Positions 3,264 to 32,000 of a stretch of DNA of 32,000 bases are shown here, piece by piece. This stretch comes from Mycobacteriales bacterium (GTDB lineage Bacteria > Actinomycetota > Actinomycetes > Mycobacteriales > Mycobacteriaceae). The position numbers and the translations under genes are program-made. The stretch spans positions 1 to 32,000 of the forward strand of contig JBBSUN010000014.1 in NCBI GenBank assembly GCA_038234335.1, in the 5' to 3' direction. The first letter of the stretch is position 1; every line of letters starts with the position of its first letter. The notes below the pieces were generated by a model. The model made no database searches. It was not told the DNA's origin and saw only the letters and a list, made by a program, of their open reading frames with translations.

Positions 3264-3267
3264 GTGA

Positions 3268-3286: not shown

Positions 3287-3368
3287 GGCTGACGGTCCAC
3301 CCGTGGAGCACGCCGAACCCGGCACCCGTGCGGTAGACACACCGGAACCGTCGACCGCAGGAGGAACC

Positions 3369-5825: not shown

Positions 5826-6239
5826 GTGGAGACAGTGGCCGAGCTCTTCTGCAACGGCGGTGCGATGCGGGGCGGAGCCCTGCACCACAACGTCTCCGCC
5901 CACCCCTTCGTGGGATCGGTGACCACGGCACCGAGCTACCGCTTCTACTCGGTCCGGGACGAGTTCCCGGCTCTCGAGCTCGTCGACGCCGGCGGGGTGT
6001 GCATCGAGGGTGAGCTCTACGACGTGCCCCTGGACCAGATCCGCACGGACTTCCTGCCGGAGGAGCCCGTCGAGCTCGAGCTCACGGTGGTCGAGCTGAC
6101 CGACGGCCGCTCGGTGCTCGCCGTCGGGCTGCGGCCCGGGCTGCGCACGTCGATGGGGGACGAGCTCACCGACATCTCCTCCCACGGCAGCTGGCGCCGC
6201 TACCGCGGCCTCGCCGCTCCCGCCGGGGACGCCTCGTGA
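5826..6239 (+). CDS. gamma-glutamylcyclotransferase-fold protein (allophanate hydrolase C-terminal domain-like)
   Basis: The sequence [17 protein letters not shown]...[15 protein letters not shown]...IEGELYDVP matches the GGCT/AIG2 and allophanate-hydrolase C-terminal pattern. The start is GTG 5826, or more likely GTG 5835 behind GGAAGGTGGAG. The stop overlaps the allantoicase GTG (GTGA). Confidence 0.7.
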
Positions 6240-7315: not shown

Positions 7316-7537
7316 CCGGGGATCGCGTGCGTGACGGCGACGTGGTCCACGCTGCGTGGACGGGGCACGTGCGCCGAGATCGAGCCGCTGGTGGTGAGCC
7401 GACCGCGCCGGGTTCCACCACCCGCACCGCGCGGTGGGTGCACCGCACGGCGCCGATGAAGTACCCCTCCACCGTCGTCCGGAGCGCGGCGGCGGCGACC
7501 GCGGCCACCGGCCCGAGGCTGGCAGCGTCCCTGCCGA

Positions 7538-8890: not shown

Positions 8891-8927
8891 GGGACGTTCT
8901 CCTCAGGTCGTGCGGGGGACAGGGGGG

Positions 8928-10052: not shown

Positions 10053-10057
10053 CGAGC

Positions 10058-11833
<1,776 letters not shown>

Positions 11834-11879
11834 GGTGGTGTCCTGTCTGGGGTTCGAGAGAGGTGTGGGTGGGGGTCGC

Positions 11880-12755
11880 TCAGCTGCCGGAGAGGCGCTC
11901 GAGCGTGCGCAGCAGGGCCGAGTGGTCCAGCCCGCCGTCGCCGGCGGCCACGGCGGAGGCCATGAGCTGGGCGACGAGGGCCGCGACGGGCGTGACCACC
12001 CCCGCGGCGCGAGCCGCGTCGACGACGATGCCCATGTCCTTGTGGTGCAGCGCGATGCGGAAGCCGGGGTCGAAGGAGCGGGTGCGCATCTTCTCGCCCT
12101 TCTGCACGAGCACGGCCGAGCCGGCGAGGCCGCCGCCGAGGACCTCCAGCGCGGCGGTGGTGTCCACCCCGTGGGCCTCCAGGAACAGCAGCGCCTCGGC
12201 GAGCAGGGCGATGTTGCCCGCCACGATGAGCTGGTTCGCGGCCTTCACGGTCTGGCCGGACCCGCTGGGTCCGACGTGCACGACGGTGCGCCCGACGGCC
12301 TCCAGCAGCGGGCGGGCCGCGGCCACGTCGTCGGCCTCGCCGCCGACCATGATCGACAGCGTTGCCGCCTTCGCCCCGGCCTCCCCGCCGGAGACGGGGG
12401 CGTCGACGTAACGCAGGCCCTGCTCCCGGGCGAGACCGGCGAGCTCGACGGTGACGTCGGGCCGGATGCTCGAGAGGTCGATGACCAGGGTGCCGGGCTC
12501 GGCACTCTCGAGCACGCCACCGGGGTCGGTGAGCACGGCCCGCACGTCGGGGGAGTCGGGAACCATGATGGCGACGACGTCGGCGCCACGGACGGCGTCG
12601 GACACCGACGTCGCGGCCCGCCCTCCTGCCGCCACCAGCGGCGCGGTCCGGTCGGGGGACTGGTTGTACCCGGCCACGGTGTGACCGGCCTCGGCGAGGT
12701 GCACCGACATGGGGCTGCCCATGATGCCGAGACCGATGAAGGCGATGGTGCTCAT
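11880..12755 (-). CDS. glxR: 2-hydroxy-3-oxopropionate (tartronate semialdehyde) reductase
   Basis: 291 aa of the beta-hydroxyacid dehydrogenase family ([13 protein letters not shown] Rossmann motif, [11 protein letters not shown]). It overlaps hyi by 4 nt. Confidence 0.9.
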
Positions 12756-13594
12756 GCTCCGGTGCTCCTGCTCTGTTCGGACGGGGCCGAGCTCCGTCGT
12801 GCGTGGTCGAGGAAGGCAAAGCTGTCCTGCGTGGATCCGGTCGGCTTGTACTCGAGCCCGACCCAGCCCGCGTAGCCCGCGGCCTGCAGGTCGCGGAGCT
12901 GGCGGTCCAGCTCCAGGTGGCCCGAGCCGGGCTCGCCCCGGCCGGGGCTGTCGGCGATCTGCACGTGCGCGATGCGGTCCACGTGCTCGGCGATGACGGC
13001 GTCGACGTCGTCACCGTTGACCGCCAGGTGGTAGAGGTCGGCGAGGAGTGCGACGTTGTCCGCGCCGACCTGGTCGATCACGCGCAGCGCGTCGGCGGCG
13101 GTGAGCAGCGGGTAGCGGGGGGCGCCGCTGACCGGCTCGACCAGGACGGTGGAGCCGCCGGACGCCGCGGCGGAGCTCGCGGCGAGGGTCAGGTTCGCCA
13201 TGGCGAGCTCGTCCTGCACCTGTGGGGCGACGCCGTCGATCCGGTTGCCGTACAGCGCGTTGTAGGTGCGGCAGCCGAGGCGGGCGCCGAGCTCGAGGGT
13301 GGCCGCGACGTTGTCGCGCACCTCGAGCTCGCGGCCCGGCCACGACATGAGCCCCCGGTCGCCGCCGGGCATGTCGCCGGCGAAGAAGTTCAGCCCGACC
13401 AGGGCCACCCCGGCGTCGGTGACCGCCCGGACCAGGGCGTCGGCCTCGGCGTCGGTGGGCACCGCGGTGGCGAAGGGCCACCACAGCTCGATGGCGTCGA
13501 AGCCGGCCCGGCGGGCCGCGGCGGGCCGCTCCAGCAGCGGGAGCTCGGTGAACAGGATCGAGCAGTTGACCTCGAGGGGCAGCGTGTGGGTCAT
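12752..13594 (-). CDS. hyi: hydroxypyruvate isomerase
   Basis: 280 aa of the xylose-isomerase-like TIM-barrel family with an Hyi-type N-terminus (NCSILFTELPLLERPAAARRAGFDAIELWWPF). There is an ATGA overlap with the permease stop. Confidence 0.88.
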   Translation of the reverse strand: MTHTLPLEVNCSILFTELPLLERPAAARRAGFDAIELWWPFATAVPTDAEADALVRAVTDAGVALVGLNFFAGDMPGGDRGLMSWPGRELEVRDNVAATLELGARLGCRTYNALYGNRIDGVAPQVQDELAMANLTLAASSAAASGGSTVLVEPVSGAPRYPLLTAADALRVIDQVGADNVALLADLYHLAVNGDDVDAVIAEHVDRIAHVQIADSPGRGEPGSGHLELDRQLRDLQAAGYAGWVGLEYKPTGSTQDSFAFLDHARRSSAPSEQSRSTGA

Positions 13595-15057
13595 GAGGTC
13601 TCCTTGCGGGCGGACGGGGGCTCGGGGGCGGGTGCCGGTGGGGAGGTGCGGGCGTCGCGGTCGGGGACGGGCAGGTCACCCCGCTCGTCGGGCACCGCCG
13701 CGAACACCGATGCGCCGGAGCGGTTCCCGGCGGTGATCTCGTTGAACAGCACGTTGAGCAGGACCGCCGTCACCGCGGCCGCGCTGATCCCGGAGTCCAT
13801 GACCACGGCCACGCCCTTGGGGAAGGCGTCCCAGAACGTCGGCGCCGCGATCGGGATGACGCCGAGGCCGATGGAGGTGGCCACGATGACCAGGTTGAGG
13901 TTGTCGGAGAAGTCCACCTTGGCCAGGGTCCGGATGCCGCTCGCGGCGACCGTGCCGAAGAGCACGATCCCGGCCCCACCGAGGACGGGGAAGGGGATGG
14001 CGGCGACGACCCGGCCGACGACCGGGAGCAGGCCGAGCAGGAACAGGAGCGCCCCACCCGCAGCGACCACGTACCGGCTCTTGATGCGGGTGAGGGCGAC
14101 CAGGCCGACGTTCTGGGCGAAGGCGCTGCAGGGGAAGGATCCGAGCAGCGGGGAGATCGCCGTCGAGACCATGTCCGCCCGCAGCCCGTCGGCGACGCGC
14201 CGGGCGTCGACGTCGGTCTCCACGATCTCGCCGATGGCGATGATGTCGGCTGTGGTCTCGGTCATGATCACCAGGATCACGATCGTCATCGAGACGATGG
14301 CCCCGACCTGGAAGGTGGGGGAGCCGAAGTGCAGCACCGGGGGCAGCGCGACGATGGTCCCGCTGCCGACGCCGGAGAAGTCGGTCTTGCCCAGCGCCAC
14401 CGCGACGAGCGTGCCGACCACGATGCCGATCAGGATCGACAGCCGGGAGACCGCACCCTGGAACAAGCGGCTGATGGCCAGGATGATGAGCAGCGTGAGG
14501 CCGGCGAGGCCGATGTTGCCGGTGGAGCCGAGGGTCTTGCTCCCGGCGCCGCCCATGGCCCAGGTGAAGGCCACGGGCATCAGCGACAGCCCGATGACGG
14601 TGATGATCGTCCCGGTCACGACGGCAGGGAACAACCGCACCAGCTGGGCGAAGAACGAGGAGAGGGCGAGGCCGATGAGACCGGCGACGATGATCGCGCC
14701 GAACACCGGTCGCAGCCCGTCGGTGCTGGCGATGGCGACCATGGTGGAGACGCTGGCGAAGGAGATGCCCTGCACGATCGGCAGCCGGGCGCCGAAGCGA
14801 CCGATGCCGAGGGTCTGGAGCAGCGTGGCCAGGCCGCTGACGAACAGCCCGGCGGTGACCAGCAGCGCGACGTCGGTGGGCGAGAGGCCGGCCGCCGTGC
14901 CGACGATGAGCGGGGGGGCGATGACCCCGCCGTACATCGTGAGGATGTGCTGCAGCCCGTAGAGGAGCAGCTGTCCCACGGGCATCCTCTCGTCCTCGGG
15001 TCGGCCGGAGCGGACCTCCTGGGTGCGGGGCGTGGCGGTGGTGCGACGCAGCTTCAT
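13591..15057 (-). CDS. nucleobase:cation symporter-2 (NCS2) family permease, probable urate/xanthine transporter
   Basis: Multi-pass membrane protein with the QLLLYGLQHILTMYGG and AFAQNVGLVALT NCS2 motifs. The start is taken at ATG 15057 (MKLRR...), 16 nt after the uricase stop. The track start at 15129 would overlap uricase. Alternative start: 14985. Confidence 0.88.
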   Translation of the reverse strand: MKLRRTTATPRTQEVRSGRPEDERMPVGQLLLYGLQHILTMYGGVIAPPLIVGTAAGLSPTDVALLVTAGLFVSGLATLLQTLGIGRFGARLPIVQGISFASVSTMVAIASTDGLRPVFGAIIVAGLIGLALSSFFAQLVRLFPAVVTGTIITVIGLSLMPVAFTWAMGGAGSKTLGSTGNIGLAGLTLLIILAISRLFQGAVSRLSILIGIVVGTLVAVALGKTDFSGVGSGTIVALPPVLHFGSPTFQVGAIVSMTIVILVIMTETTADIIAIGEIVETDVDARRVADGLRADMVSTAISPLLGSFPCSAFAQNVGLVALTRIKSRYVVAAGGALLFLLGLLPVVGRVVAAIPFPVLGGAGIVLFGTVAASGIRTLAKVDFSDNLNLVIVATSIGLGVIPIAAPTFWDAFPKGVAVVMDSGISAAAVTAVLLNVLFNEITAGNRSGASVFAAVPDERGDLPVPDRDARTSPPAPAPEPPSARKETS

Positions 15058-15073
15058 CGGTGCTCGCCCCCGC

Positions 15074-15979
15074 TCAGCAGAGCCCGGGCGCGGCGTTCCA
15101 GGCCGTGCCGGGGTCGGAGGCGTCGTCACGCGTGACGGTGGTCTCGATCAGGCCGTAGGGCCGGTCGGCGGCGATGAAGACCTCGCCGTGGTTCTCGACC
15201 CCGAAGGGCGAGAGGTCGACGGCGAAGTGGTGCTTGTTGGGCGCGGAGAACCGGATCTCGGCCACCTCGGGGTGCTGCTCGAGCACCGAGGTGCCCATGC
15301 CGAACAGCGACTCCTGCAGGGCGTGGCTGTGGATCTCGGCGAAGCGCTGCAGCAGCGTCGCCTTGATCGCGTCGTAGGTCTCGTCCCAGGCGACGTCGGT
15401 GCCGTCGTACCGCCACCGGGCGACGAGCGAGGTCGCCAAGATGCGGTCGTCGGTCTCTGCGAGCGTCGTGTAGTCGTCGACGAGGAACCCCCGGAACTCC
15501 GAGCCGGTGGTCTTGCCGATGACCAGGTCCGAGACGCCGGAGACGACGTGCACCCGGCGCGAACCACCCGAACCGTCGACGTTGACCACGGTGTTGCGCG
15601 TCCCGCTGCCCCCGCGGACGAAGGAGTGGGCGTGACCGGCGCCGTCGACCTGGATCCGGTCCCAGTGGTACTCCTCGATCTCGACCCGGGCCCCCTCCGC
15701 GGCTGGGATCACCGACACGAAGTGGTCGGCGAGGGCGAGCGCGAAGTCCTCGATCGCGCCGATGCCCTTCTCCTTGGCGAAGGAGAAGATGGTGTTCTTC
15801 TGGGTGTCGGTGGGTAGCACCGCTCCCTGGTCGCCACTGGTGTGGGCGTCCTCGAAGCGACCGCGCAGGGCGCTCGAGACGTTCAGGTCGCGGATCTCGT
15901 GGCGGGCGGTGTCGCGGTACACGCGGAACACGCGGTTCTCGGACTTGCCGTACTGGTTGGGTCCCAGGACGATGGTCAT
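15074..15979 (-). CDS. uox: urate oxidase (cofactor-independent uricase)
   Basis: 301 aa reading MTIVLGPNQYGKSENRVFRVYRD...LPTDTQKNTIFSFAKE...SFVRGG, which are classic uricase signatures. Confidence 0.93.
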   Translation of the reverse strand: MTIVLGPNQYGKSENRVFRVYRDTARHEIRDLNVSSALRGRFEDAHTSGDQGAVLPTDTQKNTIFSFAKEKGIGAIEDFALALADHFVSVIPAAEGARVEIEEYHWDRIQVDGAGHAHSFVRGGSGTRNTVVNVDGSGGSRRVHVVSGVSDLVIGKTTGSEFRGFLVDDYTTLAETDDRILATSLVARWRYDGTDVAWDETYDAIKATLLQRFAEIHSHALQESLFGMGTSVLEQHPEVAEIRFSAPNKHHFAVDLSPFGVENHGEVFIAADRPYGLIETTVTRDDASDPGTAWNAAPGLC

Positions 15980-15980
15980 G

Positions 15981-16313
15981 TCAGCTCCCTCGGTAGGTCG
16001 AGTAGGCGAACGGGCTCAGCAGGAGCGGCACGTGCAGGTGCTGCTCCGGGTCGGAGATCGTGAAGGTCACGCACACCTCTGGGTAGAAGGTGGGCTGACC
16101 GCTGGCTGCGTGGTAGGCCGCCGTGTCGAAGAACAGTCGGTAGGTGCCCGGAGCCAGCGCGTCCGGGGCCAGGTCGCGGGCGCGGCCGTCGGCGTCGGTG
16201 GTCCCGGTGCCGACGGTGCCGTCGGTGGACTCGAGCCGGACGGGGACGCCGGCGGCGGGACGGCCGAGGGACGCGTCGAGGACGTGCGTGGTGACGAGCC
16301 CGGGGCTGCTCAC
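15981..16313 (-). CDS. uraH: 5-hydroxyisourate hydrolase
   Basis: 110 aa: THVLDASLGRPAAGVPVRLE...GTYRLFFDTAAY...HVPLLLSPFAYSTYRGS (transthyretin-like, with the YRGS C-terminal tetrapeptide). GTG 16313 overlaps the uraD stop (GTGA). Confidence 0.9.
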   Translation of the reverse strand: MSSPGLVTTHVLDASLGRPAAGVPVRLESTDGTVGTGTTDADGRARDLAPDALAPGTYRLFFDTAAYHAASGQPTFYPEVCVTFTISDPEQHLHVPLLLSPFAYSTYRGS

Positions 16314-16855
16314 GGGGTGGCCTCCCCGGTCGCGCAGGACCCGGTGGTGGCGAGTGTGCTGTCGGCGAGCTGGCGCAGGCGCAGCCGCGCGATCTGCCGC
16401 AGCTCGTCGGCGACGACGGCCCGCTCGGTCTGCTCGTCGTTGTCCAGCCGCGCCCGGGCGGCGGCGACCACCTCGGCGGCACTCAGCCCGGTGGCGCAGA
16501 TCAGGAAGACCCTCCCGAAGTGCTCCTCGTAGGCGCGGTTCGCCTCGAGCAGCGCGGTCGCGCCGGCGTCGTCGGTCGATGCCGCGGCCTGCTCGCGGCG
16601 GGAGAACGACGCCGTGGTGCCGGAACCGGCGACGCGGTCCCCGATGCGGGGGTGGGCGGCCAGCGCGCGGTCCACCTCCGTCGACGTGAGGGTGGTGGCG
16701 GCGCGGTCGCCGGCGTCGAGCAGCTCGGTGACGTCGGCGTACGGGCCGCCGTCGAGCACGGCCGCGGCCCACCGGGGGACGTCGCAGCACGCGAGGAGGG
16801 CGGCCTCGGTGCCCTCGCCCGCAGTGTTCAGCCAGGTCAGGCCGGGTGCCGTCAT
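16310..16855 (-). CDS. uraD: 2-oxo-4-hydroxy-4-carboxy-5-ureidoimidazoline (OHCU) decarboxylase
   Basis: 181 aa with the AHPRIG...SRREQA...YEEHFGRVFLICATG motifs of OHCU decarboxylase. GGAGG precedes the ATG. Confidence 0.9.
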   Translation of the reverse strand: MTAPGLTWLNTAGEGTEAALLACCDVPRWAAAVLDGGPYADVTELLDAGDRAATTLTSTEVDRALAAHPRIGDRVAGSGTTASFSRREQAAASTDDAGATALLEANRAYEEHFGRVFLICATGLSAAEVVAAARARLDNDEQTERAVVADELRQIARLRLRQLADSTLATTGSCATGEATP

Positions 16856-16869
16856 CGCTACCTCCGCTC

Positions 16870-16941
16870 TGCGGAACCGCGTTCCGCATCTCGGATCAAG
16901 GTAGGTCTGTGGCCGGGCTCACGTCAACACTTTGTTGAAAA
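16870..16941 (-). promoter_or_regulatory. candidate promoter/operators of the urate operon
   Basis: On the minus strand: -35 TTGACG (16927-16922), an 18-nt spacer, then -10 TACCTT (16903-16898). The palindrome TCAACA-N3-TGTTGA (16924-16938) overlaps the -35. A perfect inverted repeat TGCGGAAC-N3-GTTCCGCA (16870-16888) lies between the predicted start site and the SD of uraD. Confidence 0.45.
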
Positions 16942-16962
16942 AAATCTGGGGAGGTCGAGCGC

Positions 16963-17355
16963 TCAGGCTGTGCGGTCCCGGTTGAGGTAGTTGTAGATCG
17001 TGAACCGGGTGACCCCGAGCGCGTCGGCGACGGACTCCACCGACTTGCGGTACTGGAAGGCGCCCCGCTCGTCGAGCAGCCGCACCGCCCGCTGCCGACC
17101 GCTCCGGTCGAGCGTGGCCAGCGGTGCCCCCAGCTCCGCCGTCAGCTGCTCGAGCAGGCCCGCCAGCTCACTGGTGCGCTCCGTCCCCGCCAGCCGCACA
17201 CCGCCGACGACCTCGCCGTCCCACTGGAGCGCGACGTCCTCGGGGCCGAGCGCTCCGACCGGGACGAGGGTGGCGCCGATCCGCTCCACCAGCGGGGTGA
17301 TCGCGACGACGAGGGGGTGCGGCTCGGCGTGGTCCTCGTGGCGGGGCTCAGGCAC
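16963..17355 (-). CDS. helix-turn-helix domain transcriptional regulator (small, C-terminal HTH)
   Basis: 130 aa whose C-terminus KSVESVADALGVTRFTIYNYLNR is a canonical HTH. It overlaps the upstream YkoF-like gene by 8 nt and sits directly upstream of the urate operon promoter region. Confidence 0.75.
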   Translation of the reverse strand: MPEPRHEDHAEPHPLVVAITPLVERIGATLVPVGALGPEDVALQWDGEVVGGVRLAGTERTSELAGLLEQLTAELGAPLATLDRSGRQRAVRLLDERGAFQYRKSVESVADALGVTRFTIYNYLNRDRTA

Positions 17356-20597: not shown

Positions 20598-21031
20598 GCG
20601 GGGTCACCGGCCAGCGCCTCGAGCGCGTCCAGCGCGGCCAGCAGCGACGCGCGGTGGGCGGGCTCGAGCGCGGCGAGGCGGGCGGCGAGGAGCCGGCTGC
20701 GCTCGGCCCGCACCCGGACGTGCAGTGCGTGACCGGCCTCGGTGGCCTCGACCCGCGCGGCCCGGCGGTCGTCGGGATCGGTGGTGCGGGCCAGCAGCCC
20801 GGCGTCGTCGAGCTTGCCGACGATCCGGGACAGCATGGTCGGGTTGATGCCCTCCCGCTGCGCCAGCTCGCCGATGCCGAGCGGGCCCAGGCGGGTCACC
20901 GTGCCGAGCACGGAGCTCTGCGTGCGTGTCAGCCCCCCGTCCGCCGACTGCCGCTCCAGCCAGCGGGCGGTGCGGGCGAGCGCGGTGCGCAGCCGGGTGA
21001 CCTCCTCGCTCCCGGACCCGTCAAGTTGCAT
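20594..21031 (-). CDS. MarR family transcriptional regulator
   Basis: Winged-HTH pattern LTRTQSSVLGTVTRLGPLGIGELAQREGINPTMLSRIVGKLDDAGLLAR..DPDDRRA. The start is taken at ATG 21031 (MQLDGSG), 7 nt after a TATGCT hexamer. Alternatives are 21043 and 21076. Confidence 0.85.
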   Translation of the reverse strand: MQLDGSGSEEVTRLRTALARTARWLERQSADGGLTRTQSSVLGTVTRLGPLGIGELAQREGINPTMLSRIVGKLDDAGLLARTTDPDDRRAARVEATEAGHALHVRVRAERSRLLAARLAALEPAHRASLLAALDALEALAGDPA

Positions 21032-21291
21032 GCCGAGAAGCATACATCGCGGTCGGACGTCCACGACCGTGTGCACCCGCGGAACCTGCTGCCCTGCGCG
21101 CGGACCTCGCTCGTCTTCCCGCTGCGCTGCGCGGCGGCGCGGGGCGGGCTGCAGGTGCTGGGCGTGCGGGGCCGAGCTGGGGAGGCCGAGCTACGACGGA
21201 CGGGGCTGCGGGCCCGGAACCGCCGGCCCTGGGCACGGGGGAGGGGCCGAGGCCGGAACCCGGAGCGCGGCCGGGCCCTAGGGTCACGGAC

Positions 21292-22122
21292 GTGCTGCCA
21301 CGCGTGCGGGCGACCCGCTACGTCACCCCGCTGCGGGAGGGGGGCTCCCTGCCCGGGCTCGTCGAGGCCGACGACCTGGGCACGTACGTGGTGAAGTTCC
21401 ACGGCGCCGGGCAGGGCCGCAAGACCCTCGTCGCCGAGGTCGTCACCGGGGAGCTCGCCCGCGAGCTGGGCCTGGCCGTGCCCCGCCTGGTCACCGTCGA
21501 CGTCGATCCCGCCCTGGCGCCCGGGGAGCCCGACGAGGAGGTGCAGGACCTGCTGCGCGCCAGCCCGGGACTGAACCTGGGGATGGACTTCCTGCCCGGG
21601 GCGCTGGATCTCGACGCGGCCTGGGTCGATCCGCCGACGGCCGGACGGGTGCTGTTCCTGGACGCGCTCGTCGGCAACGTCGACCGGAGCTGGCGCAACC
21701 CGAACATGCTGCTGTGGCACCGGGAGCCGTGGCTGATCGACCACGGGGCGACGCTGACCTTCCACCACCACTGGCCCGGCGCCGAGGCCTTCCCCGCCCG
21801 TCCCTACGACGCCCGGGCGCACTTGCTGCTCACCGCCGCACCCGAGCTCGACCCGGCCGCCGCGGCGCTCGCGCCGCAGGTCACCCCCGAGCTGCTGGAG
21901 GACGTGGTGGCCCAGGTGCCCGAGGCCTGGCTGGCCGACGAGCCGGGCTTCGACGACCCGGCGCAGGTGCGGGCGGCCTACGTGCGGCTGCTCGGCGCCC
22001 GGGTCGCGCAGCGCGAGGCGTGGCTGCCGGGGGTGCACGAGGCCGTGGCCGCGGCGCCGTCCGTGCGGGCGCCGGTGGAGATCGGCCGCACCCGCCCGCG
22101 CTGGCTCGGGCCGGCCCAGTGA
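21292..22122 (+). CDS. HipA-like / PI3-PI4-kinase-like protein kinase family protein
   Basis: 276 aa with YVVKFHGAGQG (Lys codon 21394-21396), the catalytic-loop-like GNVDRSWRNPNML (21673-21711) and the metal-binding-like LIDHG (21733-21747). GC3 is high. The stop overlaps the next gene's GTG. Confidence 0.75.
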   Translation: MLPRVRATRYVTPLREGGSLPGLVEADDLGTYVVKFHGAGQGRKTLVAEVVTGELARELGLAVPRLVTVDVDPALAPGEPDEEVQDLLRASPGLNLGMDFLPGALDLDAAWVDPPTAGRVLFLDALVGNVDRSWRNPNMLLWHREPWLIDHGATLTFHHHWPGAEAFPARPYDARAHLLLTAAPELDPAAAALAPQVTPELLEDVVAQVPEAWLADEPGFDDPAQVRAAYVRLLGARVAQREAWLPGVHEAVAAAPSVRAPVEIGRTRPRWLGPAQ

Positions 22123-22541
22123 CCCCGACCCCCGGTTCCCCAGCCGTGCACGCCCCCGCCGTGCACGCCTCCGCCCTGCACGCCTACGAGTACGCCGTGC
22201 TGCGCGTGGTCCCGCGCGTCGAGCGCGGCGAGGCGATGAACGCCGGGGTGCTGCTGTGGTGCCGGCCGCTGCAGGCGCTGCACGCCCGGGTGCACCTGGA
22301 CGGCGCCCGGCTGCACGCGCTGGACCCGCACGCCGATGCCGATGCGGTCGCCCACGCCCTGGCCGCGGTGCTCGACGTGTGCGCCGGGGTGGGGGCGGCC
22401 GGGGCCGAGCCCGCCGGTGGGCGGTTCCGCTGGCTCACCGCGCCGCGCAGCACCGTCGTCCAGCCCGGCCCCGTGCACACCGGGCTGACCGCGGACCCCG
22501 TCGTCGAGGTCGACCGGCTGCTCGAGGTCCTCGTCCGCTGA
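22119..22541 (+). CDS. DUF3037 domain protein
   Basis: YEYAVLRVVPRVERGEAMNAGVLLWC...RFRWLTAPRSTVVQPGPVHTG matches my recollection of the DUF3037 pattern. The GTG at 22119 overlaps the kinase stop (GTGA). In-frame alternative GTGs are at 22146 and 22161. Confidence 0.7.
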   Translation: MTPTPGSPAVHAPAVHASALHAYEYAVLRVVPRVERGEAMNAGVLLWCRPLQALHARVHLDGARLHALDPHADADAVAHALAAVLDVCAGVGAAGAEPAGGRFRWLTAPRSTVVQPGPVHTGLTADPVVEVDRLLEVLVR

Positions 22542-22578
22542 CGGGAACACGTTCGCCGCGCGAAAGGTTGGGGCGGAG

Positions 22579-23427
22579 ATGACGCAGGCAGCGAACCCGG
22601 TCCCGGACACCGCCCTCAACGACGGCACGACGATCCCCCAGCTCGGGTACGGGGTGTTCCAGGTGCCCGAGCAGGAGACGTTCGACGCCGTCTCGGCCGC
22701 CCTGGCCGCCGGGTACCGCCACATCGACACCGCCAAGATCTACGGCAACGAGCGGGGCGTGGGACGGGCCATCGCCGAGTCCGGCATCCCCCGCGACGAC
22801 GTCTACGTGACCACGAAGCTGTGGAACGCCGACCACGGCCACGACGCCACCCTGCGGGCCTTCGACACCAGCCTGGGCGAGCTCGGCCTGGAGCAGCTCG
22901 ACCTGTACCTCATCCACTGGCCGGTGCCCGCCAAGGACGAGTGGGTGAGCACGTGGAGGGCCTTCGAGCAGCTGCAGGCCGACGGCCGGGTCACCTCGAT
23001 CGGCGTCTCCAACTTCACCGTGCCGCTGCTGCAGCGGCTGCTGGAGGAGACCGACGTGGTGCCGGTGCTCAACCAGATCGAGCTGCACCCGCGGTTCTCC
23101 CAGCCCGAGCTGCGCGCCTTCCACGCCGACCACGACATCCGCACCGAGGCCTGGAGCCCCCTGGGGGGGCAGGGTGGTTCGGTGCTCGACCAGGACACCC
23201 TCGTCGCGGTGGCGCAGGCCCACGGCAGGAGCCCGGCGCAGACCGTGCTCCGCTGGCACCTGCAGCTGGGCAACATCGTCATCCCCAAGTCGTCCACCCC
23301 CTCGCGCATCGCGGAGAACTTCGACGTCTTCGACTTCGAGCTCACCGGCGACGAGATGGCCTCGCTGGCCACCATGGACGACGGCAGCCGCGTCGGTCCC
23401 GACCCGGCCCGGGCCAACTTCGCGTAG
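22579..23427 (+). CDS. aldo/keto reductase (2,5-diketo-D-gluconate reductase-like)
   Basis: 282 aa with GYRHIDTAKIYGNE, LDLYLIHWP and IPKSSTPSRIAENF, which are the AKR catalytic tetrad context. Confidence 0.92.
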   Translation: MTQAANPVPDTALNDGTTIPQLGYGVFQVPEQETFDAVSAALAAGYRHIDTAKIYGNERGVGRAIAESGIPRDDVYVTTKLWNADHGHDATLRAFDTSLGELGLEQLDLYLIHWPVPAKDEWVSTWRAFEQLQADGRVTSIGVSNFTVPLLQRLLEETDVVPVLNQIELHPRFSQPELRAFHADHDIRTEAWSPLGGQGGSVLDQDTLVAVAQAHGRSPAQTVLRWHLQLGNIVIPKSSTPSRIAENFDVFDFELTGDEMASLATMDDGSRVGPDPARANFA

Positions 23428-26938: not shown

Positions 26939-27238
26939 GTGACCCTGGCCCAGCTCGAGGGGGCGCTGGACTGGTGCGTCCCGGGCTTCGCCGAGGCCGC
27001 TCGTGCCCGGAAGCTGCCCGGCGCCTACCAGGGGGAGCGGTTCTGGCACGGACGGGCCACCGTGCAGCGGCACCGGCACTGGGTCGTCGTGCTGCCCGTC
27101 CTGGCCCGGGGGACCGCGGCGGTCACGGTGGGCTTCGACGGCACGTGGGCCTGGGTGGTGCGCCCGGCCGAGACGGCGCTGGCTCCGGTGGACCTCGACG
27201 CGGTGCAGGCGGCGCTCGACGCGGCTCTGGCGGGCTGA
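26939..27238 (+). CDS. hypothetical protein (99 aa)
   Basis: A GTG-initiated ORF 10 nt after the quinone oxidoreductase stop. GC3 is near-uniformly G/C, like the bona fide genes here. I recognise no family. Confidence 0.5.
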   Translation: MTLAQLEGALDWCVPGFAEAARARKLPGAYQGERFWHGRATVQRHRHWVVVLPVLARGTAAVTVGFDGTWAWVVRPAETALAPVDLDAVQAALDAALAG

Positions 27239-28420: not shown

Positions 28421-28470
28421 TTGTCAACAAGGATTGACGCAGCCGAGTGCGTCAATGTAGGTTGACCGCG
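28421..28470 (+). promoter_or_regulatory. promoter plus palindromic operator upstream of the HTH/NRPS unit
   Basis: TTGTCAACAAGG-ATTGACGCA-GCCGAG-TGCGTCAAT-GTAGGTTGACCGCG-ATG. A perfect 9-bp inverted repeat spans 28433-28441/28448-28456. The promoter reads -35 TTGACG (28434-28439), an 18-nt spacer, then -10 TAGGTT (28458-28463), 7 nt before ATG 28471, which predicts a leaderless transcript. Confidence 0.55.
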
Positions 28471-28680
28471 ATGTCCAGAGCCACCCGCCTCGCCCGCGCC
28501 GCGGGTTCCGACGACCCGTCGACCGGCCTGGGAGCCGTTGCTGCGCTGCGTGTCCAGCTGGAGGAGCTCGAGGCGACGCAGGTGGGCAACGCCCGCAACC
28601 GGGGCTGGTCCTGGGCGGAGATCGCCACCGAGCTCGGCGTCAGCCGCCAGGCCGTGCACAAGAAGCACGCCACCAGCTGA
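28471..28680 (+). CDS. small helix-turn-helix DNA-binding protein (69 aa)
   Basis: MSRATRLARAAG...ARNRGWSWAEIATELGVSRQAVHKKH is a sigma-70 region-4-like / Hin-like HTH. The track start at 28447 lies inside the operator, so ATG 28471 is preferred. Confidence 0.75.
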   Translation: MSRATRLARAAGSDDPSTGLGAVAALRVQLEELEATQVGNARNRGWSWAEIATELGVSRQAVHKKHATS

Positions 28681-28699: not shown

Positions 28700-31600
28700 T
28701 TGTCCCCAAGCAGGTCCCCCAGCACGACCACCGACCCGCTCCGGCGCGCCGGGCACGCCCCGCCGGCCCGCACCCTGCTGGACGTCCTCGCCGCCACCAC
28801 GGCCGCCCACCCCGACGAGCCCGCGCTGGACGACGGCACCACCGTCCTCACCTACCTCGAGCTGGCCGCCGCCGCGCACGCGCTGGCCCGCAGGCTGGCC
28901 CGGCGTGGGGTCGGTCCGGGCGCACGGGTGGGGGTGCGGATGCCGTCGGGCTCGGTCGAGCTCTACGTCGCGATCCTCGGGATCCTCGCCGCCGGGGCCG
29001 CGTACGTGCCCGTCGACGTGGACGACCCCGACGAGCGGGCGCAGCTGGTCTTCGGCGAGGCCGCCGTCGCGCTGGTGCTGGACGGCACCGTGCTGGAGGG
29101 CCCCGTGGTGGAGGGCACCGTGCTGGAGGGCCCCGTGCTGGAGGGCCCCGACTCGGACGGGAGCGACCTGCCGGGCACCGCCGCCGAGCCCACCGCACCG
29201 GGCCTGACCGACGACGCCTGGATCATCTTCACCTCCGGCTCCACCGGCACCCCCAAGGGCGTCGCGGTGAGCCACCGCAGCGCGGCCGCCTTCGTCGATG
29301 CGGAGGCGCGCCTGTTCTGCGTCGACGCGCCCCTGGGCCCCGGGGACCGGGTGCTCGCCGGGCTGTCGGTCGCCTTCGACGCCAGCTGCGAGGAGATGTG
29401 GCTCGCCTGGGGCCACGGGGCCGCCCTGGTCCCCGCCCCGCGCGCGCTCGTGCGCACCGGGACCGACCTCGGGCCCTGGCTGGTGGCGCGGGAGATCACC
29501 GTGGTCTCCACCGTCCCCACCCTCGCCGCGCTGTGGCCCGCCGAGGCGCTCGAGGCCGTGCGGCTGCTCGTCTTCGGCGGCGAGGCGTGCCCCGAGGAGC
29601 TCGCGGCCCGCCTCTCCGTGCCCGGGCGCGAGGTGTGGAACACCTACGGCCCCACCGAGGCCACCGTCGTCGCGTGTGCGGCACGACTGGGCGGGGACGG
29701 TCCGGTGCGGATCGGGCTGCCGCTGGACGGCTGGGACCTCGCCGTGCTCGACCCCGACGGGAACCCGGTGGGCGAGGGTTCCTCCGGCGAGCTGGTCATC
29801 GGCGGAGTGGGTCTGGCCCGGTACCTCGACCCGGCCAAGGACGCCGAGAAGTACGCTCCTGCAGCGGTGCTGGGCTGGGACCGCGCCTACCGCTCCGGTG
29901 ACCAGGTTCGCAACGACGCCGCGGGTCTGGTGTTCGTGGGGCGTCTGGACGACCAGGTCAAGCTGGGCGGGCGCCGCATCGAGCTCGGCGAGGTCGACGC
30001 GGCGCTGGCCGCTGCACCCGGGGTCGCCGGCGCCGCTGCCGCCGTGCGCGGCCCGGCCGGGGGCCACCAGCTGCTCGTGGGCTACGTGGTGCCCGGGCCG
30101 GGCTACGACCGCGACGTCGTGCGTGCCCAGCTGCGCGAGACCCTGCCCGCCGCCCTGGTGCCGCTGCTGGCCGAGGTGCGGACGCTGCCCACCCGCACCT
30201 CCGGCAAGGTGGACCGTGGGGCGCTGCCCTGGCCCCTGGAGCAGGGACCCACCGTCGAGCTCGACGGCACCGCCGGGTGGGTCGCCCGGCGGTGGGCGGG
30301 TGTCCTGGGCTCCACCCCGGGTCTCGACGACGACTTCTTCACCCACGGCGGGGGCAGCCTGGCCGCCGCCCAGCTCGTGGCCGCCCTGCGCGCCCGCCAC
30401 CCGGGGGTCACCGTGGCCGACGTCTACGACCACCCACGCCTCGGCGCGCTGGCCGGGCACCTGGACTCCCTGCGCCCCGCCGAGGTCGTCACCGAGCGGC
30501 ACGTGCGGCCGGTGCCGCGGCGGGCCCAGGCCGTGCAGGTGGCGCTCACGCTCCTGCTGCAGACCCTCGTCGGGCTGCGGTGGCTGACCTGGACCGCGCT
30601 GCTGGCCAACAGCCTGGCCGCGGTCACCGGGGCGCCCTGGCTGCCCACCACGTCGTGGTGGTGGGTGGTGCTGGGGTGGCTGCTGCTGGGCACCCCACCC
30701 GGGCGGATGGGCGTCTCCGTGCTCGGGTCCCGGCTGCTGCTGCGCGGCGTCGTCCCCGGTGCGCACCCGCGCGGCGGCTCGGTGCACCTGCGGCTGTGGT
30801 GCTGCGAGCAGCTCGCCGCGGCCAGCGGCGCCGCGAACCTCGCCGGGGCCCCCTGGATCACCTACTACGCGCGGGCGCTGGGGGCCACGCTCGGTCCCGG
30901 GGTGGACCTGCACTCGTTGCCCCCGGTGACCGGGATGCTGACGCTGGGGGCAGGGGCCTCGATCGAGCCCGAGGTGGACCTCGCCGGGTACTGGCTCGAC
31001 GGGGACGTGCTGCACCTCGGGCGGGTGCACGTCGGCGCCGACGCGCACGTCGGGGCCCGCAGCACCCTGCTGCCGGGGGCGCACCTGGGCCGCGGCGCGC
31101 ACCTGTCCGCCGGGTCCTCGCTGGACGCCACCGTGCCCCCGGAGCAGACGTGGGCTGGCTCCCCGGCGGTGCGCACCCCGGTGGCCCGCCCGTCCTGGCC
31201 GCCCGCCCGCCCCCAGCGCGCCCCGGGCTGGGTGCCCGCCTACGGGGTGGCCTCCGCCGTCCTCGGGGCGCTGCCGCTGCTGGCGGCGTCCGTCGGGCTC
31301 GTCGTCGTCGGCTCCCTGGTGGCCGGGGCGGACTCCCTCGGCTCCGCCACCACCCGTGCCCTGCTCGCGGCGCCGCTGGGGGCGCTCGTCGCGCTGGTGG
31401 TCTTCGCCGGGCTCGTGCTGGGCGGGGTGCGGGCGCTCAGCGTCGGCATCCGGGCCGGGCACCACCCCGTGCGCAGCCGCACCGGGTGGCAGGTGTGGGC
31501 CACGCTGCGGCTGATGGACGACGCCCGCACCTGGCTGTTCCCGCTGTACTCCTCGCTGGCCACCCCCGTGTGGCTGCGGCTGCTCGGGGCGCGCATCGGG

Positions 31601-32000
31601 CGCGGCGTGGAGGCCTCGACCGTCCTCATGCTCCCGTCGCTGACCACGGTGCGCGACGGGGCGTTCCTCGCCGACGACACCATGGTCGGCACCTACGAGC
31701 TCGGGGGCGGCTGGATCAGGGTGGAGCGCACCCGCATCGGGCGTCGGGCGTTCCTGGGCAACTCCGGGTTCACCGGGCCCGGCCGCAAGGTCCCCCGCGA
31801 CGGGCTCGTGGCCGTCCTCGCCGGCACCCCCCGCAAGGCCAAGGCGGGCTCGTCGTGGCTGGGCAGCCCCCCGGTCCGGTTGCGCCGCAACGCCGCCGAG
31901 GTCGATGAGTCGCGCACCTTCGCCCCGACGCCCCGGCTGCGGGTGGCCCGCTCGCTGGTGGAGCTGTGCCGGGTGGTCCCCGTGGCGATCTCCGTCGCGC
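28700..32000 (+). CDS. Pls/PosA-type single-module non-ribosomal peptide synthetase (A-T-TM-LbH repeats), partial at the window end
   Basis: A frame open from TTG 28700 (GGAGGA at 28687-28692) to the window end, at least 1100 codons, and not listed in the ORF track. It carries A-domain cores AYVPVD, FTSGSTGTPKG (about 29227-29260), NTYGPTE, GELVIGG, YRSGD, GRLDDQVKLGGRRIELGE and SGKVDR, plus T-domain FFTHGGGSL (Ser codon 30356-30358). Paired hydrophobic segments then alternate with hexapeptide-repeat soluble domains. No C or TE domain is present. Confidence 0.85.
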   Translation, partial: MSPSRSPSTTTDPLRRAGHAPPARTLLDVLAATTAAHPDEPALDDGTTVLTYLELAAAAHALARRLARRGVGPGARVGVRMPSGSVELYVAILGILAAGAAYVPVDVDDPDERAQLVFGEAAVALVLDGTVLEGPVVEGTVLEGPVLEGPDSDGSDLPGTAAEPTAPGLTDDAWIIFTSGSTGTPKGVAVSHRSAAAFVDAEARLFCVDAPLGPGDRVLAGLSVAFDASCEEMWLAWGHGAALVPAPRALVRTGTDLGPWLVAREITVVSTVPTLAALWPAEALEAVRLLVFGGEACPEELAARLSVPGREVWNTYGPTEATVVACAARLGGDGPVRIGLPLDGWDLAVLDPDGNPVGEGSSGELVIGGVGLARYLDPAKDAEKYAPAAVLGWDRAYRSGDQVRNDAAGLVFVGRLDDQVKLGGRRIELGEVDAALAAAPGVAGAAAAVRGPAGGHQLLVGYVVPGPGYDRDVVRAQLRETLPAALVPLLAEVRTLPTRTSGKVDRGALPWPLEQGPTVELDGTAGWVARRWAGVLGSTPGLDDDFFTHGGGSLAAAQLVAALRARHPGVTVADVYDHPRLGALAGHLDSLRPAEVVTERHVRPVPRRAQAVQVALTLLLQTLVGLRWLTWTALLANSLAAVTGAPWLPTTSWWWVVLGWLLLGTPPGRMGVSVLGSRLLLRGVVPGAHPRGGSVHLRLWCCEQLAAASGAANLAGAPWITYYARALGATLGPGVDLHSLPPVTGMLTLGAGASIEPEVDLAGYWLDGDVLHLGRVHVGADAHVGARSTLLPGAHLGRGAHLSAGSSLDATVPPEQTWAGSPAVRTPVARPSWPPARPQRAPGWVPAYGVASAVLGALPLLAASVGLVVVGSLVAGADSLGSATTRALLAAPLGALVALVVFAGLVLGGVRALSVGIRAGHHPVRSRTGWQVWATLRLMDDARTWLFPLYSSLATPVWLRLLGARIGRGVEASTVLMLPSLTTVRDGAFLADDTMVGTYELGGGWIRVERTRIGRRAFLGNSGFTGPGRKVPRDGLVAVLAGTPRKAKAGSSWLGSPPVRLRRNAAEVDESRTFAPTPRLRVARSLVELCRVVPVAISVA

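What the first reader, a model, noticed from the sequence alone, without database searches (positions are those of the whole stretch)
21292..22541. Translationally coupled HipA/PI3-4K-like kinase + DUF3037 two-gene cassette of unknown function
The first gene retains what look like all the kinase essentials.
- A VVKF lysine.
- A GNVDRSWRNPNML catalytic-loop-like motif (compare DRHxxN of PI3/4-kinases and NxDxHxKN of HipA).
- A LIDHG metal-binding motif.

Its stop overlaps the GTG of a DUF3037 gene (CAGTGACC, 22119-22122). The toxin-like kinase plus small partner layout resembles HipBA-type toxin-antitoxin or abortive-infection modules, but the partner has no recognisable HTH. The pair sits divergently from a MarR-MFS unit in an accessory-looking stretch. 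To my knowledge the function of this pairing is undescribed.
Basis: partly seen in the sequence, partly recalled or inferred. Interest (0 to 1): 0.65.

Follow-up and report, generated by a model that had tools for sequence, protein, structure and literature searches.

The report
HipA-like kinase with DUF3037 partner
This is a real, tightly coupled two-gene unit, a HipA-like protein kinase and a small DUF3037 protein. Relatives of the pair were recently shown to be a kinase-toxin/antidote anti-phage system, so the pairing is already known, though this short actinobacterial version is untested and behaves like a stable chromosomal resident.

Summary
- Gene 1 (21292-22122, +, 276 aa) is a Pfam HipA_2 kinase. 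It has a confident protein-kinase-like model and invariant K35, D131/N136 and D150.
- Gene 2 (22119-22541, +, 140 aa) is a single-domain DUF3037 protein. The two overlap by GTGA.
- In 82 of 82 related actinobacterial loci the DUF3037 gene lies directly downstream. 79 of 82 have RTGA at the kinase stop.

The toxin-antitoxin/abortive-infection reading fits, but the pairing is not undescribed.
- It is PADLOC candidate PDC-M66.
- Homologous pairs (DS-6/HipAD in E. coli, and the pair next to Retron-Sda1) defend against phage. Defence needs the kinase, and deleting DUF3037 is toxic.

The window copy differs from those tested systems.
- Its DUF3037 protein is the short form, without the C-terminal DUF1829/DNA-binding extension.
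- It is not in a defence island or mobile element. Its relatives sit at fixed, syntenic sites within genera and cluster by taxon.
- None was found in phage collections.
- DUF3037 models confidently but has no relative among solved structures.

Best reading: a kinase toxin with a DUF3037 neutraliser, resident in the chromosome (confidence 0.55). Moderate interest: a short-form variant of a known kind.

The parts
21292..22122 (+). HipA_2-family protein-kinase-like gene (276 aa, GTG start), the putative toxin/effector
   Evidence: ORF. Coding signature. Pfam PF20613, E 5e-15. PADLOC PDC-M66A, E 1.7e-19. PHROG 3162, E 2e-18. AF2 pLDDT 88.4 and pTM 0.87. Foldseek matches CtkA, PI4KII-alpha, Fam20 and HipA. 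The start is supported by the homolog alignment.
21340..21348 (+). G17-G18-S19, a Gly-rich loop between the first two strands of the N-lobe. S19 is a candidate autophosphorylation site (inferred by analogy with HipA S150).
   Evidence: Invariant in 38 sequences. The function is inferred.
21388..21399 (+). VVKF: strand carrying the ATP-contacting lysine K35 (codon 21394-21396). E49, on the following helix, is also invariant.
21673..21711 (+). Catalytic loop GNVD131RSWRN136PNML. The D-to-N spacing matches HipA's GATD309GHAKN314.
21733..21747 (+). LID150HG, the metal-binding Asp motif (equivalent of DFG, or of HipA D332)
22119..22122 (+). GTGA: the DUF3037 start codon overlaps the kinase stop codon, giving translational coupling
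   Evidence: RTGA is present at the kinase stop in 79 of 82 related loci.
22119..22541 (+). Short-form DUF3037 gene (140 aa), the putative neutralising partner of the kinase. The DUF3037 domain spans residues 25-139 (22191-22535). The N-terminal ~20 residues are a variable Pro/Ala/His-rich tail.
   Evidence: Pfam PF11236, E 3.4e-37. PADLOC PDC-M66B, E 1.5e-6, over 65 of 281 profile positions only. Alignment with 42 invariant positions. AF2 pLDDT 90.5. No solved-structure relative.
21077..21291 (.). Intergenic region shared with the divergent MarR gene. It presumably holds the promoter of the pair (inferred only).
   Evidence: No sigma-70-type promoter match and no convincing operator repeat were found.

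Best explanation
The two genes form a chromosomal toxin-antitoxin-like module of the HipA_2/DUF3037 type, the same kind as PADLOC PDC-M66 and the E. coli HipAD/DS-6 system.

Proposed mechanism, with the basis for each step:
1. The kinase is catalytically competent (shown): all catalytic residues are invariant.
2. Its partner is made from the same mRNA by stop/start coupling, so both appear in fixed proportion. The overlap is shown. The coupling is inferred.
3. DUF3037 binds the kinase and keeps it inactive. This is inferred from homologs, where deleting DUF3037 is toxic and AlphaFold3 predicts a kinase-DUF3037 complex.
4. When the partner is lost or displaced, by phage infection or by stress that stops synthesis, the kinase phosphorylates one or more essential proteins and arrests growth (inferred). 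The target is unknown. Aminoacyl-tRNA synthetases are the HipA precedent.

The window copy is the minimal version. Its DUF3037 protein lacks the C-terminal DUF1829/DNA-binding part, so it probably neutralises without repressing its own promoter. In Actinomycetota the pair looks like a long-resident, vertically inherited module rather than a mobile defence island gene.
For: The linkage between the two genes is strict.
- 82 of 82 loci carry DUF3037 directly downstream.
- 79 of 82 have the RTGA overlap.
- The 4-nt overlap was also called independently by public gene callers in L001, L002 and L085-L087.
- Natural kinase-DUF3037 fusions exist: P0073, P0198 and P0174.

Experiments on homologs:
- In the Retron-Sda1 operon, deleting HipA abolishes defence against phage Bas51. 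Deleting DUF3037 is toxic. The RT and ncRNA are dispensable (PMC12548924).
- In DS-6/HipAD, the kinase catalytic mutant loses defence, and AlphaFold3 gives ipTM 0.76-0.79 for the A-B complex (PMC13092281).

Phage-borne distant relatives exist: PHROG 3162 and 5137, and BFVD structural matches to the DUF3037 model.
Against: - No experiment exists for the short form or for any actinobacterial copy.
- The partner matches only 65 of 281 positions of PDC-M66B, and it lacks the C-terminal module present in every validated example.
- The genomic behaviour is unlike typical defence or mobile TA genes.
  - Flanks are syntenic within genera.
  - Kinase sequences cluster by synteny group, 72 of 73.
  - Neighbours are housekeeping genes.
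  - There is no defence enrichment.
  - There were 0 hits in 50,697 phage genomes and none in IMG/VR.
- DUF3037 is unusually conserved for an antitoxin. It has 42 invariant positions, many of them polar.
- Similarity to canonical HipA is visible only at fold and motif level.
Confidence: 0.55

Rival explanations
1. A domesticated regulatory kinase module. In Actinomycetota the pair is not a poison/antidote or defence system. It is a vertically inherited signalling switch, in which DUF3037 acts as a sensor, an allosteric regulator or the kinase's dedicated substrate, and it controls a normal physiological response.
For: - The pair sits at fixed syntenic positions within Pseudonocardia (16 loci), Blastococcus/Modestobacter (15), Jatrophihabitans (12), Streptomyces/Actinacidiphila (8) and Actinoallomurus (4).
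- Kinase identity is 78.7% within synteny groups and 62.7% between them. The nearest neighbour lies in the same group for 72 of 73.
- Both genes are intact in nearly all loci.
- Neighbours are housekeeping genes such as Ddl, GpsA, catalase and PhoX.
- DUF3037 has many invariant polar residues, including PRST and HTGxT, which could be phospho-acceptors or a ligand site.
- No phage or viral copies were found.
Against: - Homologous pairs behave as toxin plus neutraliser.
- Chromosomal TA modules can also be stably inherited.
- The scan returns only genomes that have the pair, so its prevalence within genera is unknown.
- No conserved third gene or pathway neighbour appears across genera.
Confidence: 0.25
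2. A small-molecule or lipid kinase (antibiotic, metabolite or phosphoinositide-like substrate), with DUF3037 as an accessory subunit. It would be linked to resistance or secondary metabolism rather than to protein phosphorylation.
For: - The fold matches PI4KII-alpha as well as it matches the protein kinase CtkA (E 3.6e-5, TM 0.51).
- In the window the pair lies next to a MarR-MFS efflux unit.
- APH-family genes lie next to it in Pseudonocardia.
- On two Streptomyces plasmids the kinase matches; in the one inspected (L084) the pair lies inside a polyketide cluster, beside an elfamycin-type efflux gene.
Against: - These contexts are lineage-specific. None of the window's neighbours recurs in the 82 loci.
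- No Pfam PI3_PI4_kinase or APH hit was found.
- The family is curated as HipA-like.
- Validated homologs act as toxins whose partner's deletion is lethal. That is not expected of a resistance kinase.
Confidence: 0.08
3. A mobile anti-phage abortive-infection system in the strict sense, acquired recently in this genome, exactly like prophage-borne HipAD.
For: - Both proteins hit the PDC-M66A/B models.
- The window's flanking genes are not shared with any of the 82 related loci.
- One locus (L002) has AbiEii and a transposase a few kb away.
Against: - There is no integrase, transposase, tRNA-adjacent boundary or defence gene near the pair in the window.
- Composition and codon signature match the surrounding genes.
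- Relatives are vertically inherited.
- Phage and viral collections hold no copies.
- Only 9 of 72,556 plasmids match. Most are very large replicons (0.5-11.9 Mb), and two are Bacteroidales records of 131 and 278 kb.
Confidence: 0.12

Closest known systems
HipAD / DS-6 (E. coli; Brenes & Laub 2025, cited in DeWeirdt et al. 2026, PMC13092281) and PADLOC candidate PDC-M66
   Same: A two-gene unit with the HipA-like kinase first and a DUF3037 protein second. Both window proteins hit the PDC-M66A/B models. The partner has no HipB-like HTH. In DS-6 the kinase catalytic residue is required for function.
   Different: - The DS-6B and PDC-M66B partners are about 280 aa, with DUF3037 plus DUF1829 and a predicted DNA contact. 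The window partner is 140 aa, DUF3037 only, and matches 65 of 281 profile positions.
- The window kinase matches PDC-M66A only over residues 1-161.
- HipAD is prophage-borne. The window pair lies among metabolic genes, and its relatives are vertically inherited.
HipA-like/DUF3037 pair in the Retron-Sda1 operon (PMC12548924)
   Same: The same two families, adjacent to each other. Experimentally it is a stand-alone defence unit with the kinase as toxin and DUF3037 as neutraliser. The N-terminal kinase motifs are alike (LGGS...YVIKF against EGGS...YVVKF).
   Different: - The Sda1 DUF3037 protein has a C-terminal region similar to retron type III DNA-binding proteins, and an Xre-like HTH gene lies upstream.
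- It comes from a low-GC host, next to a retron RT and ncRNA.
- None of these features is present in the window.
Canonical HipBA (E. coli hipBA) and HipBST
   Same: Protein-kinase-like fold with the same order of G-loop Ser, Lys, D-x5-N catalytic loop and metal-binding Asp. The logic of a toxin kinase plus a small neutralising partner is shared. The kinase is short and lacks the HipA N-terminal subdomain, as HipT does.
   Different: - There is no HipA_C (PF07804) or Couple_hipA match.
- hhalign against E. coli HipA finds only one helix (probability 2.6%).
- The gene order is reversed, with the toxin first.
- The partner is neither HipB (Xre HTH) nor HipS. DUF3037 has no solved-structure relative.
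- DUF3037 partners are not mentioned in the 2021 Hip-kinase phylogeny paper (PMC8262856).
Helicobacter pylori CtkA and type II PI4-kinases (structural neighbours)
   Same: These are the best Foldseek matches to the kinase model (E 3.6e-5, TM about 0.5).
   Different: Sequence identity is only 11-17%, with no family-level sequence match. They are not paired with DUF3037. This is a resemblance of fold, not membership.

Membership tests
HipA_2 kinases (Pfam PF20613, clan PKinase) | Match to the family HMM above the gathering score | tested here: met
   55.9 bits against a cut-off of 27; residues 14-244 cover profile positions 8-237 of 240
HipA_2 kinases (Pfam PF20613, clan PKinase) | Protein-kinase-like fold with an intact Lys, catalytic Asp/Asn and metal-binding Asp | tested here: met
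   AF2 pLDDT 88.4. Foldseek matches CtkA, PI4KII, Fam20 and HipA. K35, E49, D131, N136 and D150 are invariant.
DUF3037 (Pfam PF11236) | Match to the family HMM above the gathering score | tested here: met
   127.7 bits against a cut-off of 22.6, over the full length of the profile (1-118 of 118)
PDC-M66 / HipAD (DS-6) defence system | Component A: HipA-like kinase matching PDC-M66A | tested here: met
   E 1.7e-19, but only residues 1-161 against profile positions 9-179 of 270
PDC-M66 / HipAD (DS-6) defence system | Component B: protein matching PDC-M66B | tested here: inconclusive
   E 1.5e-6, covering only profile positions 2-65 of 281. Whether PADLOC's coverage rules would accept this was not tested.
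PDC-M66 / HipAD (DS-6) defence system | The two genes adjacent, co-directional, kinase first | tested here: met
   The arrangement is conserved in 82 of 82 loci.
PDC-M66 / HipAD (DS-6) defence system | Partner carries a C-terminal extension (DUF1829 or DNA-binding region) after DUF3037 | tested here: not met
   The partner is 140 aa, and DUF3037 is its only domain. The next gene is an aldo/keto reductase.
PDC-M66 / HipAD (DS-6) defence system | Kinase-dependent protection against phage, and toxicity when the partner is removed | not testable with these tools
   Shown only for homologs (PMC12548924, PMC13092281)
PDC-M66 / HipAD (DS-6) defence system | Residence in a prophage, mobile element or defence island | tested here: not met
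   Window neighbours are metabolic genes. There were 0 phage hits and none in IMG/VR. The scan of 129 neighbour proteins gave only generic PADLOC hits and no integrases.
Canonical HipBA toxin-antitoxin | HipA_C (PF07804) kinase domain with the N-terminal Couple_hipA subdomain | tested here: not met
   No such Pfam hit at E up to 1. hhalign against E. coli HipA gave probability 2.6%. The protein is 276 aa against 440 aa for HipA.
Canonical HipBA toxin-antitoxin | Upstream Xre-type HTH antitoxin/repressor (HipB) | tested here: not met
   The upstream gene is a divergent MarR that is not conserved in related loci. The partner is downstream and has no HTH.
Canonical HipBA toxin-antitoxin | Phosphorylates an aminoacyl-tRNA synthetase | not testable with these tools
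   No substrate information is available
PI3/PI4-kinases | PI3_PI4_kinase catalytic-domain sequence match | tested here: not met
   No Pfam hit. The only link is fold similarity to PI4KII-alpha and Vps34.
Type II toxin-antitoxin modules (general) | Patchy, horizontally mobile distribution | tested here: inconclusive
   Within-genus synteny and taxon-congruent clustering argue for vertical descent. Presence/absence frequencies within genera could not be measured. Positions differ between genera.

The most novel reading that the evidence does not exclude
In Actinomycetota and Bacteroidota the short-form HipA_2/DUF3037 pair is not a phage-defence cassette. It is an ancient, vertically kept growth-control switch. 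DUF3037 is a fold with no solved relative. Its invariant RFRW...PRST...HTGxT surface gates the kinase directly, either as a pseudosubstrate or phospho-acceptor, or as a sensor of a ligand. The phage-borne long forms (HipAD) would then be a derived, weaponised offshoot.
Probability: 0.25. Interest if true: 0.55.

Novelty: new variant of a known kind. Interest (0 to 1): 0.35.

Why it matters
The finding was flagged as an undescribed kinase/DUF pairing, and that claim no longer holds. The pairing is in PADLOC (PDC-M66) and has been validated as a kinase-toxin defence system (HipAD/DS-6, and the pair in the Retron-Sda1 operon).

What remains of value:
- The window shows the minimal form of the system, a kinase plus a bare DUF3037 domain with no DNA-binding part. 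This should be the cleanest material for asking how DUF3037 restrains a HipA-like kinase.
- DUF3037 models confidently, has no solved-structure relative, and is unusually conserved. A structure of the complex would be new.
- In Actinomycetota the pair sits at the same chromosomal site across species of a genus, away from defence islands and phages. Either a defence/TA module has become a stable resident, or this clade has a housekeeping regulatory role. Deciding between these would say something general about how defence systems are domesticated.

Tried and rejected
- **Fusion as a stand-in for the complex.** I tried to model the complex using the natural fusion P0073 with a block alignment of kinase and DUF3037 homologs (A2). 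MAFFT dragged the kinase C-termini onto the DUF3037 region, so I dropped it and folded the two window proteins separately.
- **The primary HipAD paper.** Brenes & Laub 2025 is not held. HipAD is cited second-hand from PMC13092281.
- **Sequence search of the PDB.** Nothing meaningful for either protein.
- **hhalign against E. coli HipA.** Only a 23-residue helix aligned, probability 2.6%. The alignment has low diversity (Neff 1.9), so this does not argue against fold-level relatedness.
- **Promoter, terminator and operator search at 20900-22750 and 21000-21320.** Nothing convincing.
- **DUF3037-Fic fusion (P0221) as evidence that DUF3037 is a generic toxin regulator.** It is a singleton with no recurrent architecture, so it is only a weak hint. 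The DUF3037-NUDIX fusion (P0138) was not followed up.
- **NCBIfam.** No model hits either protein.
- **Look-up of the window's own kinase in the contig index.** Not on record, so the source organism was not identified. The best species-level relatives are 67-72% identical Actinomycetota.
- **The MarR-MFS unit or the downstream aldo/keto reductase as functional partners.** Rejected, because none of the window's neighbours recurs in the 82 related loci.
- **The full Retron-Sda1 operon sequence.** It is truncated in the stored supplement, so no pairwise comparison with a validated system was possible.
Full report
**1. What is there**

The window is 74.4% G+C. Two co-directional ORFs occupy the stated coordinates:
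- 21292-22122 (+, GTG start, 276 aa)
- 22119-22541 (+, GTG start, 140 aa)

The junction reads CAGTGACC at 22117-22124. The GTG start of the second ORF (22119-22121) therefore overlaps the TGA stop of the first (22120-22122).

Both ORFs have the third-position G+C bias of real genes in this genome. Their GC1/2/3 values are 0.83/0.50/0.97 and 0.87/0.53/0.96.

The first start codon is supported by homolog N-termini that align from residue 1.

The first ~20 residues of the second protein are a variable Pro/Ala/His-rich tail. However, a 93%-identical homolog covers 100% of the query.

**2. Family assignments**

The first protein:
- It is a Pfam HipA_2 kinase (PF20613, 55.9 bits against a cut-off of 27).
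- It gives no HipA_C, APH or PI3_PI4_kinase hit.

The second protein:
- It is a full-length DUF3037 domain (PF11236, 127.7 bits) and nothing else.

NCBIfam has no model for either protein.

The PADLOC library matches both proteins to the two components of one candidate defence system:
- PDC-M66A: E 1.7e-19, window residues 1-161.
- PDC-M66B: E 1.5e-6, window residues 21-84, against only positions 2-65 of a 281-position profile.

PHROGs holds distant phage families for both:
- phrog_3162: E 2e-18.
- phrog_5137: a 279-position profile, matched only at its N-terminus, E 3e-4.

**3. The kinase is intact**

In an alignment of 38 relatives (63-86% identical to the window protein), the following are invariant:
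- G17-G18-S19
- K35 (in YVVKF)
- E49
- D131 and N136 (in GNVDRSWRN)
- D150-H151-G152 (in LIDHG)

AlphaFold2 gives a confident model, with pLDDT 88.4 and pTM 0.87.

In that model GGS lies in the loop between the first two strands. K35 ends the third strand, and E49 lies on the following helix. This is the arrangement of a protein-kinase N-lobe.

Foldseek against the PDB returns these matches:
- H. pylori CtkA, human PI4KII-alpha and Fam20 kinases, at E about 4e-5 and TM about 0.5.
- Shewanella HipA (4pu5), at E 1.6e-3.
- Vps34, mTOR and ATM.

Sequence-level comparison with E. coli HipA finds only the helix after the lysine (hhalign probability 2.6%).

The order and spacing of motifs nevertheless agree:

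| Element | E. coli HipA | Window kinase |
|---|---|---|
| G-loop Ser | S150 | S19 |
| ATP lysine | K181 | K35 |
| Catalytic loop | D309-x4-N314 | D131-x4-N136 |
| Metal-binding Asp | D332 | D150 |

The label 'HipA/PI3-4K-like' is a fair description of the fold.

**4. The partner**

DUF3037 relatives are numerous:
- 1,478 representatives at 50% clustering with E up to 1e-3.
- About 7,500 proteins at 90% clustering.
- Most are 120-145 aa single-domain proteins.

The domain is strikingly conserved. There are 42 invariant positions among 36 sequences, in three patches:
- Y25...P32-R33...R36-G37-E38...N41
- R102-F103-R104-W105
- P109-R110-S111-T112...Q115...H120-T121-G122...T124...D126-P127

AlphaFold2 models it confidently (pLDDT 90.5) as a four-stranded sheet with four helices.

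Structural comparisons:
- Nothing in the PDB resembles it. The best Foldseek E is 1.6 with TM below 0.3, and phmmer finds nothing.
- In the viral predicted-structure library, a few uncharacterised phage proteins of 125-287 aa match (E 3.5e-4 to 1.6e-2, TM 0.5-0.6).

The partner has no HTH.

**5. The pairing is real and conserved**

A scan of one genome per GTDB species returned 80 loci. All are Actinomycetota, 60-72% identical in the kinase. Two further loci were fetched by protein look-up.

- In 82 of 82, a DUF3037 homolog lies directly downstream on the same strand.
- 79 of 82 have ATGA or GTGA at the kinase stop.
- In 74 of 82, that start opens a DUF3037 ORF of at least 110 aa.
- Public gene calls in five loci show the same 4-nt overlap.
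- Natural kinase-DUF3037 fusions exist: P0073, and the partial P0198 and P0174.
- Bacteroides and Parabacteroides carry a 45-47% identical kinase. In the Bacteroides finegoldii record inspected, a 127-aa DUF3037 gene lies next to it.

**6. What the literature already says**

The pairing is not undescribed.

PMC12548924 (PLoS Biol 2025) reports the following:
- DUF3037 is 'strongly associated' with HipA-like kinases.
- PADLOC labels the pair PDC-M66.
- In the Retron-Sda1 operon the pair is a stand-alone defence against phage Bas51.
- Deleting the kinase abolishes defence, and deleting DUF3037 is toxic.
- The retron RT, the ncRNA and an upstream HTH are dispensable.

PMC13092281 (Science 2026) validates DS-6, also named HipAD after Brenes & Laub 2025:
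- DS-6A is a HipA-related kinase.
- DS-6B carries DUF3037 plus DUF1829.
- A catalytic mutant loses defence.
- AlphaFold3 predicts an A-B complex (ipTM 0.76-0.79) and a weaker DNA contact.

DUF3037 partners are not mentioned in the 2021 paper on the phylogeny of HipA-homologous kinases.

**7. How the window copy differs**

(a) The partner is the short form.
- It has no DUF1829 or DNA-binding extension.
- All validated examples have a partner of about 280 aa.

(b) The surroundings are ordinary chromosome.
- The rest of the window holds allantoin/purine catabolism genes: allantoicase, amidohydrolase, glycerate kinase, glyoxylate carboligase-type TPP enzyme, tartronate-semialdehyde-reductase-type dehydrogenase, permease, uricase, HIUase and OHCU decarboxylase.
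- It also holds dehydrogenases, the divergent MarR-MFS unit, an aldo/keto reductase, a flavin monooxygenase, AraC, an MBL-fold protein and an NRPS-like gene.
- No integrase, transposase or defence gene lies near the pair.

(c) Related loci are stable within genera.
- None of the window's neighbours recurs in the related loci.
- Within genera, however, the flanks are syntenic. 73 of 82 loci fall into 11 groups:
  - 16 Pseudonocardia
  - 15 Blastococcus/Modestobacter
  - 12 Jatrophihabitans
  - 8 Streptomyces/Actinacidiphila
  - 4 Actinoallomurus
  - six smaller groups of 2-6 loci
- Kinase identity averages 78.7% within groups and 62.7% between them.
- The nearest neighbour belongs to the same synteny group for 72 of 73.

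- I scanned 129 neighbour proteins: the three genes on each side, in 24 loci spanning all groups.
- The only PADLOC hits come from generic domains. One DEAD-box helicase accounts for 12 of the 17 families hit. The others include a Lon-type protease.
- The Pfam families are SDRs, alpha/beta hydrolases, PhoX, APH, enoyl-CoA hydratases, catalase, D-Ala-D-Ala ligase and glycerol-3-phosphate dehydrogenase.

(e) Mobile collections hold almost no copies.
- tblastn finds no copy in 50,697 phage genomes.
- Only 9 of 72,556 plasmid records match. Most are very large replicons.
- Pattern scans of IMG/VR find none. That test is limited to near-exact conserved peptides.

**8. Interpretation**

The most economical reading is that this is the minimal version of the HipA_2/DUF3037 toxin-neutraliser module.
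- The kinase is active.
- The partner is co-translated from the overlapping start.
- By analogy with the deletion phenotypes and the predicted complex of homologs, the partner binds and silences the kinase.
- Loss of the partner would free the kinase to phosphorylate an essential target and stop growth.

What is shown here is the anatomy, the conservation, the intact active site and the family link. Toxicity, neutralisation, the trigger and the target are inferred.

The short partner probably cannot repress its own promoter, because it has no DNA-binding part. No operator-like repeat was found upstream.

The vertical inheritance, the housekeeping neighbours, the absence from phages and the unusually conserved polar surface of DUF3037 leave a real alternative open. 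In Actinomycetota the pair may be a domesticated regulatory switch, with DUF3037 as sensor or substrate.

A small-molecule kinase role is suggested only by lineage-specific contexts: MarR-MFS here, APH neighbours in Pseudonocardia, and a polyketide cluster on a Streptomyces plasmid. It is the least likely reading.

**9. Verdict**

The kind of system is right, but the claim of novelty is wrong.
- The pair is a short-form variant of a known kind (PDC-M66/HipAD).
- Interest is moderate (0.35). The general discovery has been made. What is left is the unsolved DUF3037 fold, the unknown kinase target, and the question of whether the vertically inherited actinobacterial clade is still a defence/TA module.

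Noticed in passing
window 2644-3290 (- strand): A second, classical type II toxin-antitoxin pair sits in the same window. It is a PIN-domain (VapC-like) gene at 2644-3036 (E 1.1e-17), preceded by a small ORF with a Phd/YefM antitoxin match (26.9 bits, just below the Pfam cut-off of 29.8). The two overlap by 4 nt at 3033-3036.
   Followed up: partly
window 5826-17355: A large purine/allantoin catabolism block. It holds the AH_C domain protein, allantoicase, an amidohydrolase (allantoinase-like), glycerate kinase, a glyoxylate-carboligase-type TPP enzyme, a tartronate-semialdehyde-reductase-type dehydrogenase, a hydroxypyruvate-isomerase-type TIM barrel, a xanthine/uracil permease, uricase, HIUase, OHCU decarboxylase and a PucR-like HTH_22 regulator.
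   Followed up: partly
window 28928-31999 (+), runs off the window end: An NRPS-like gene with AMP-binding, PP-binding and hexapeptide-transferase repeat regions. A small HTH ORF (28462-28680) lies just before it.
   Followed up: no
window 22119-22190 (N-terminus of the DUF3037 protein): A Pro/Ala/His-rich tail (SPAVHAPAVHASALHA) with a repeated AVHA motif, upstream of the conserved domain. The closest homolog (P0271, 93% identical) lacks five of these residues, so this is a small repeat-length polymorphism.
   Followed up: partly
P0221 and P0138 (metagenomic proteins): DUF3037 is fused to a Fic domain in P0221. There it takes the place of the usual Fic_N region, and no second example turned up among the 120 best hits. 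DUF3037 is fused to a NUDIX hydrolase in P0138. Both partners are nucleotide-using enzymes.
   Followed up: partly
L084 6031-7172 (Streptomyces sp. 2P-4 linear plasmid NZ_CP095012.1): A HipA_2/DUF3037 pair sits inside a polyketide gene cluster. It lies between a phosphopantetheinyl transferase and crotonyl-CoA carboxylase/reductase, near a facT-like elfamycin efflux gene. S. globosus plasmid NZ_CP030864.1 gives an identically scoring kinase match at a similar position, but its surroundings were not inspected.
   Followed up: no
window 1936-2643 (+): A Y_phosphatase3-family tyrosine phosphatase gene (E 9e-60). It abuts the PIN toxin gene tail-to-tail and follows an SDR gene, with a start/stop overlap at 1936.
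   Followed up: no
L014 6762-7168: In one MAG locus the DUF3037 homolog is split into three tblastn pieces in different frames. This is either a pseudogene or an assembly error. It is the only clearly disrupted partner among the 82 loci.
   Followed up: no
window 26939-27238 (+): A 99-aa ORF with a strong coding signature (GC3 0.95) and no Pfam match. It lies between a quinone-oxidoreductase-type gene and an MBL-fold gene.
   Followed up: no
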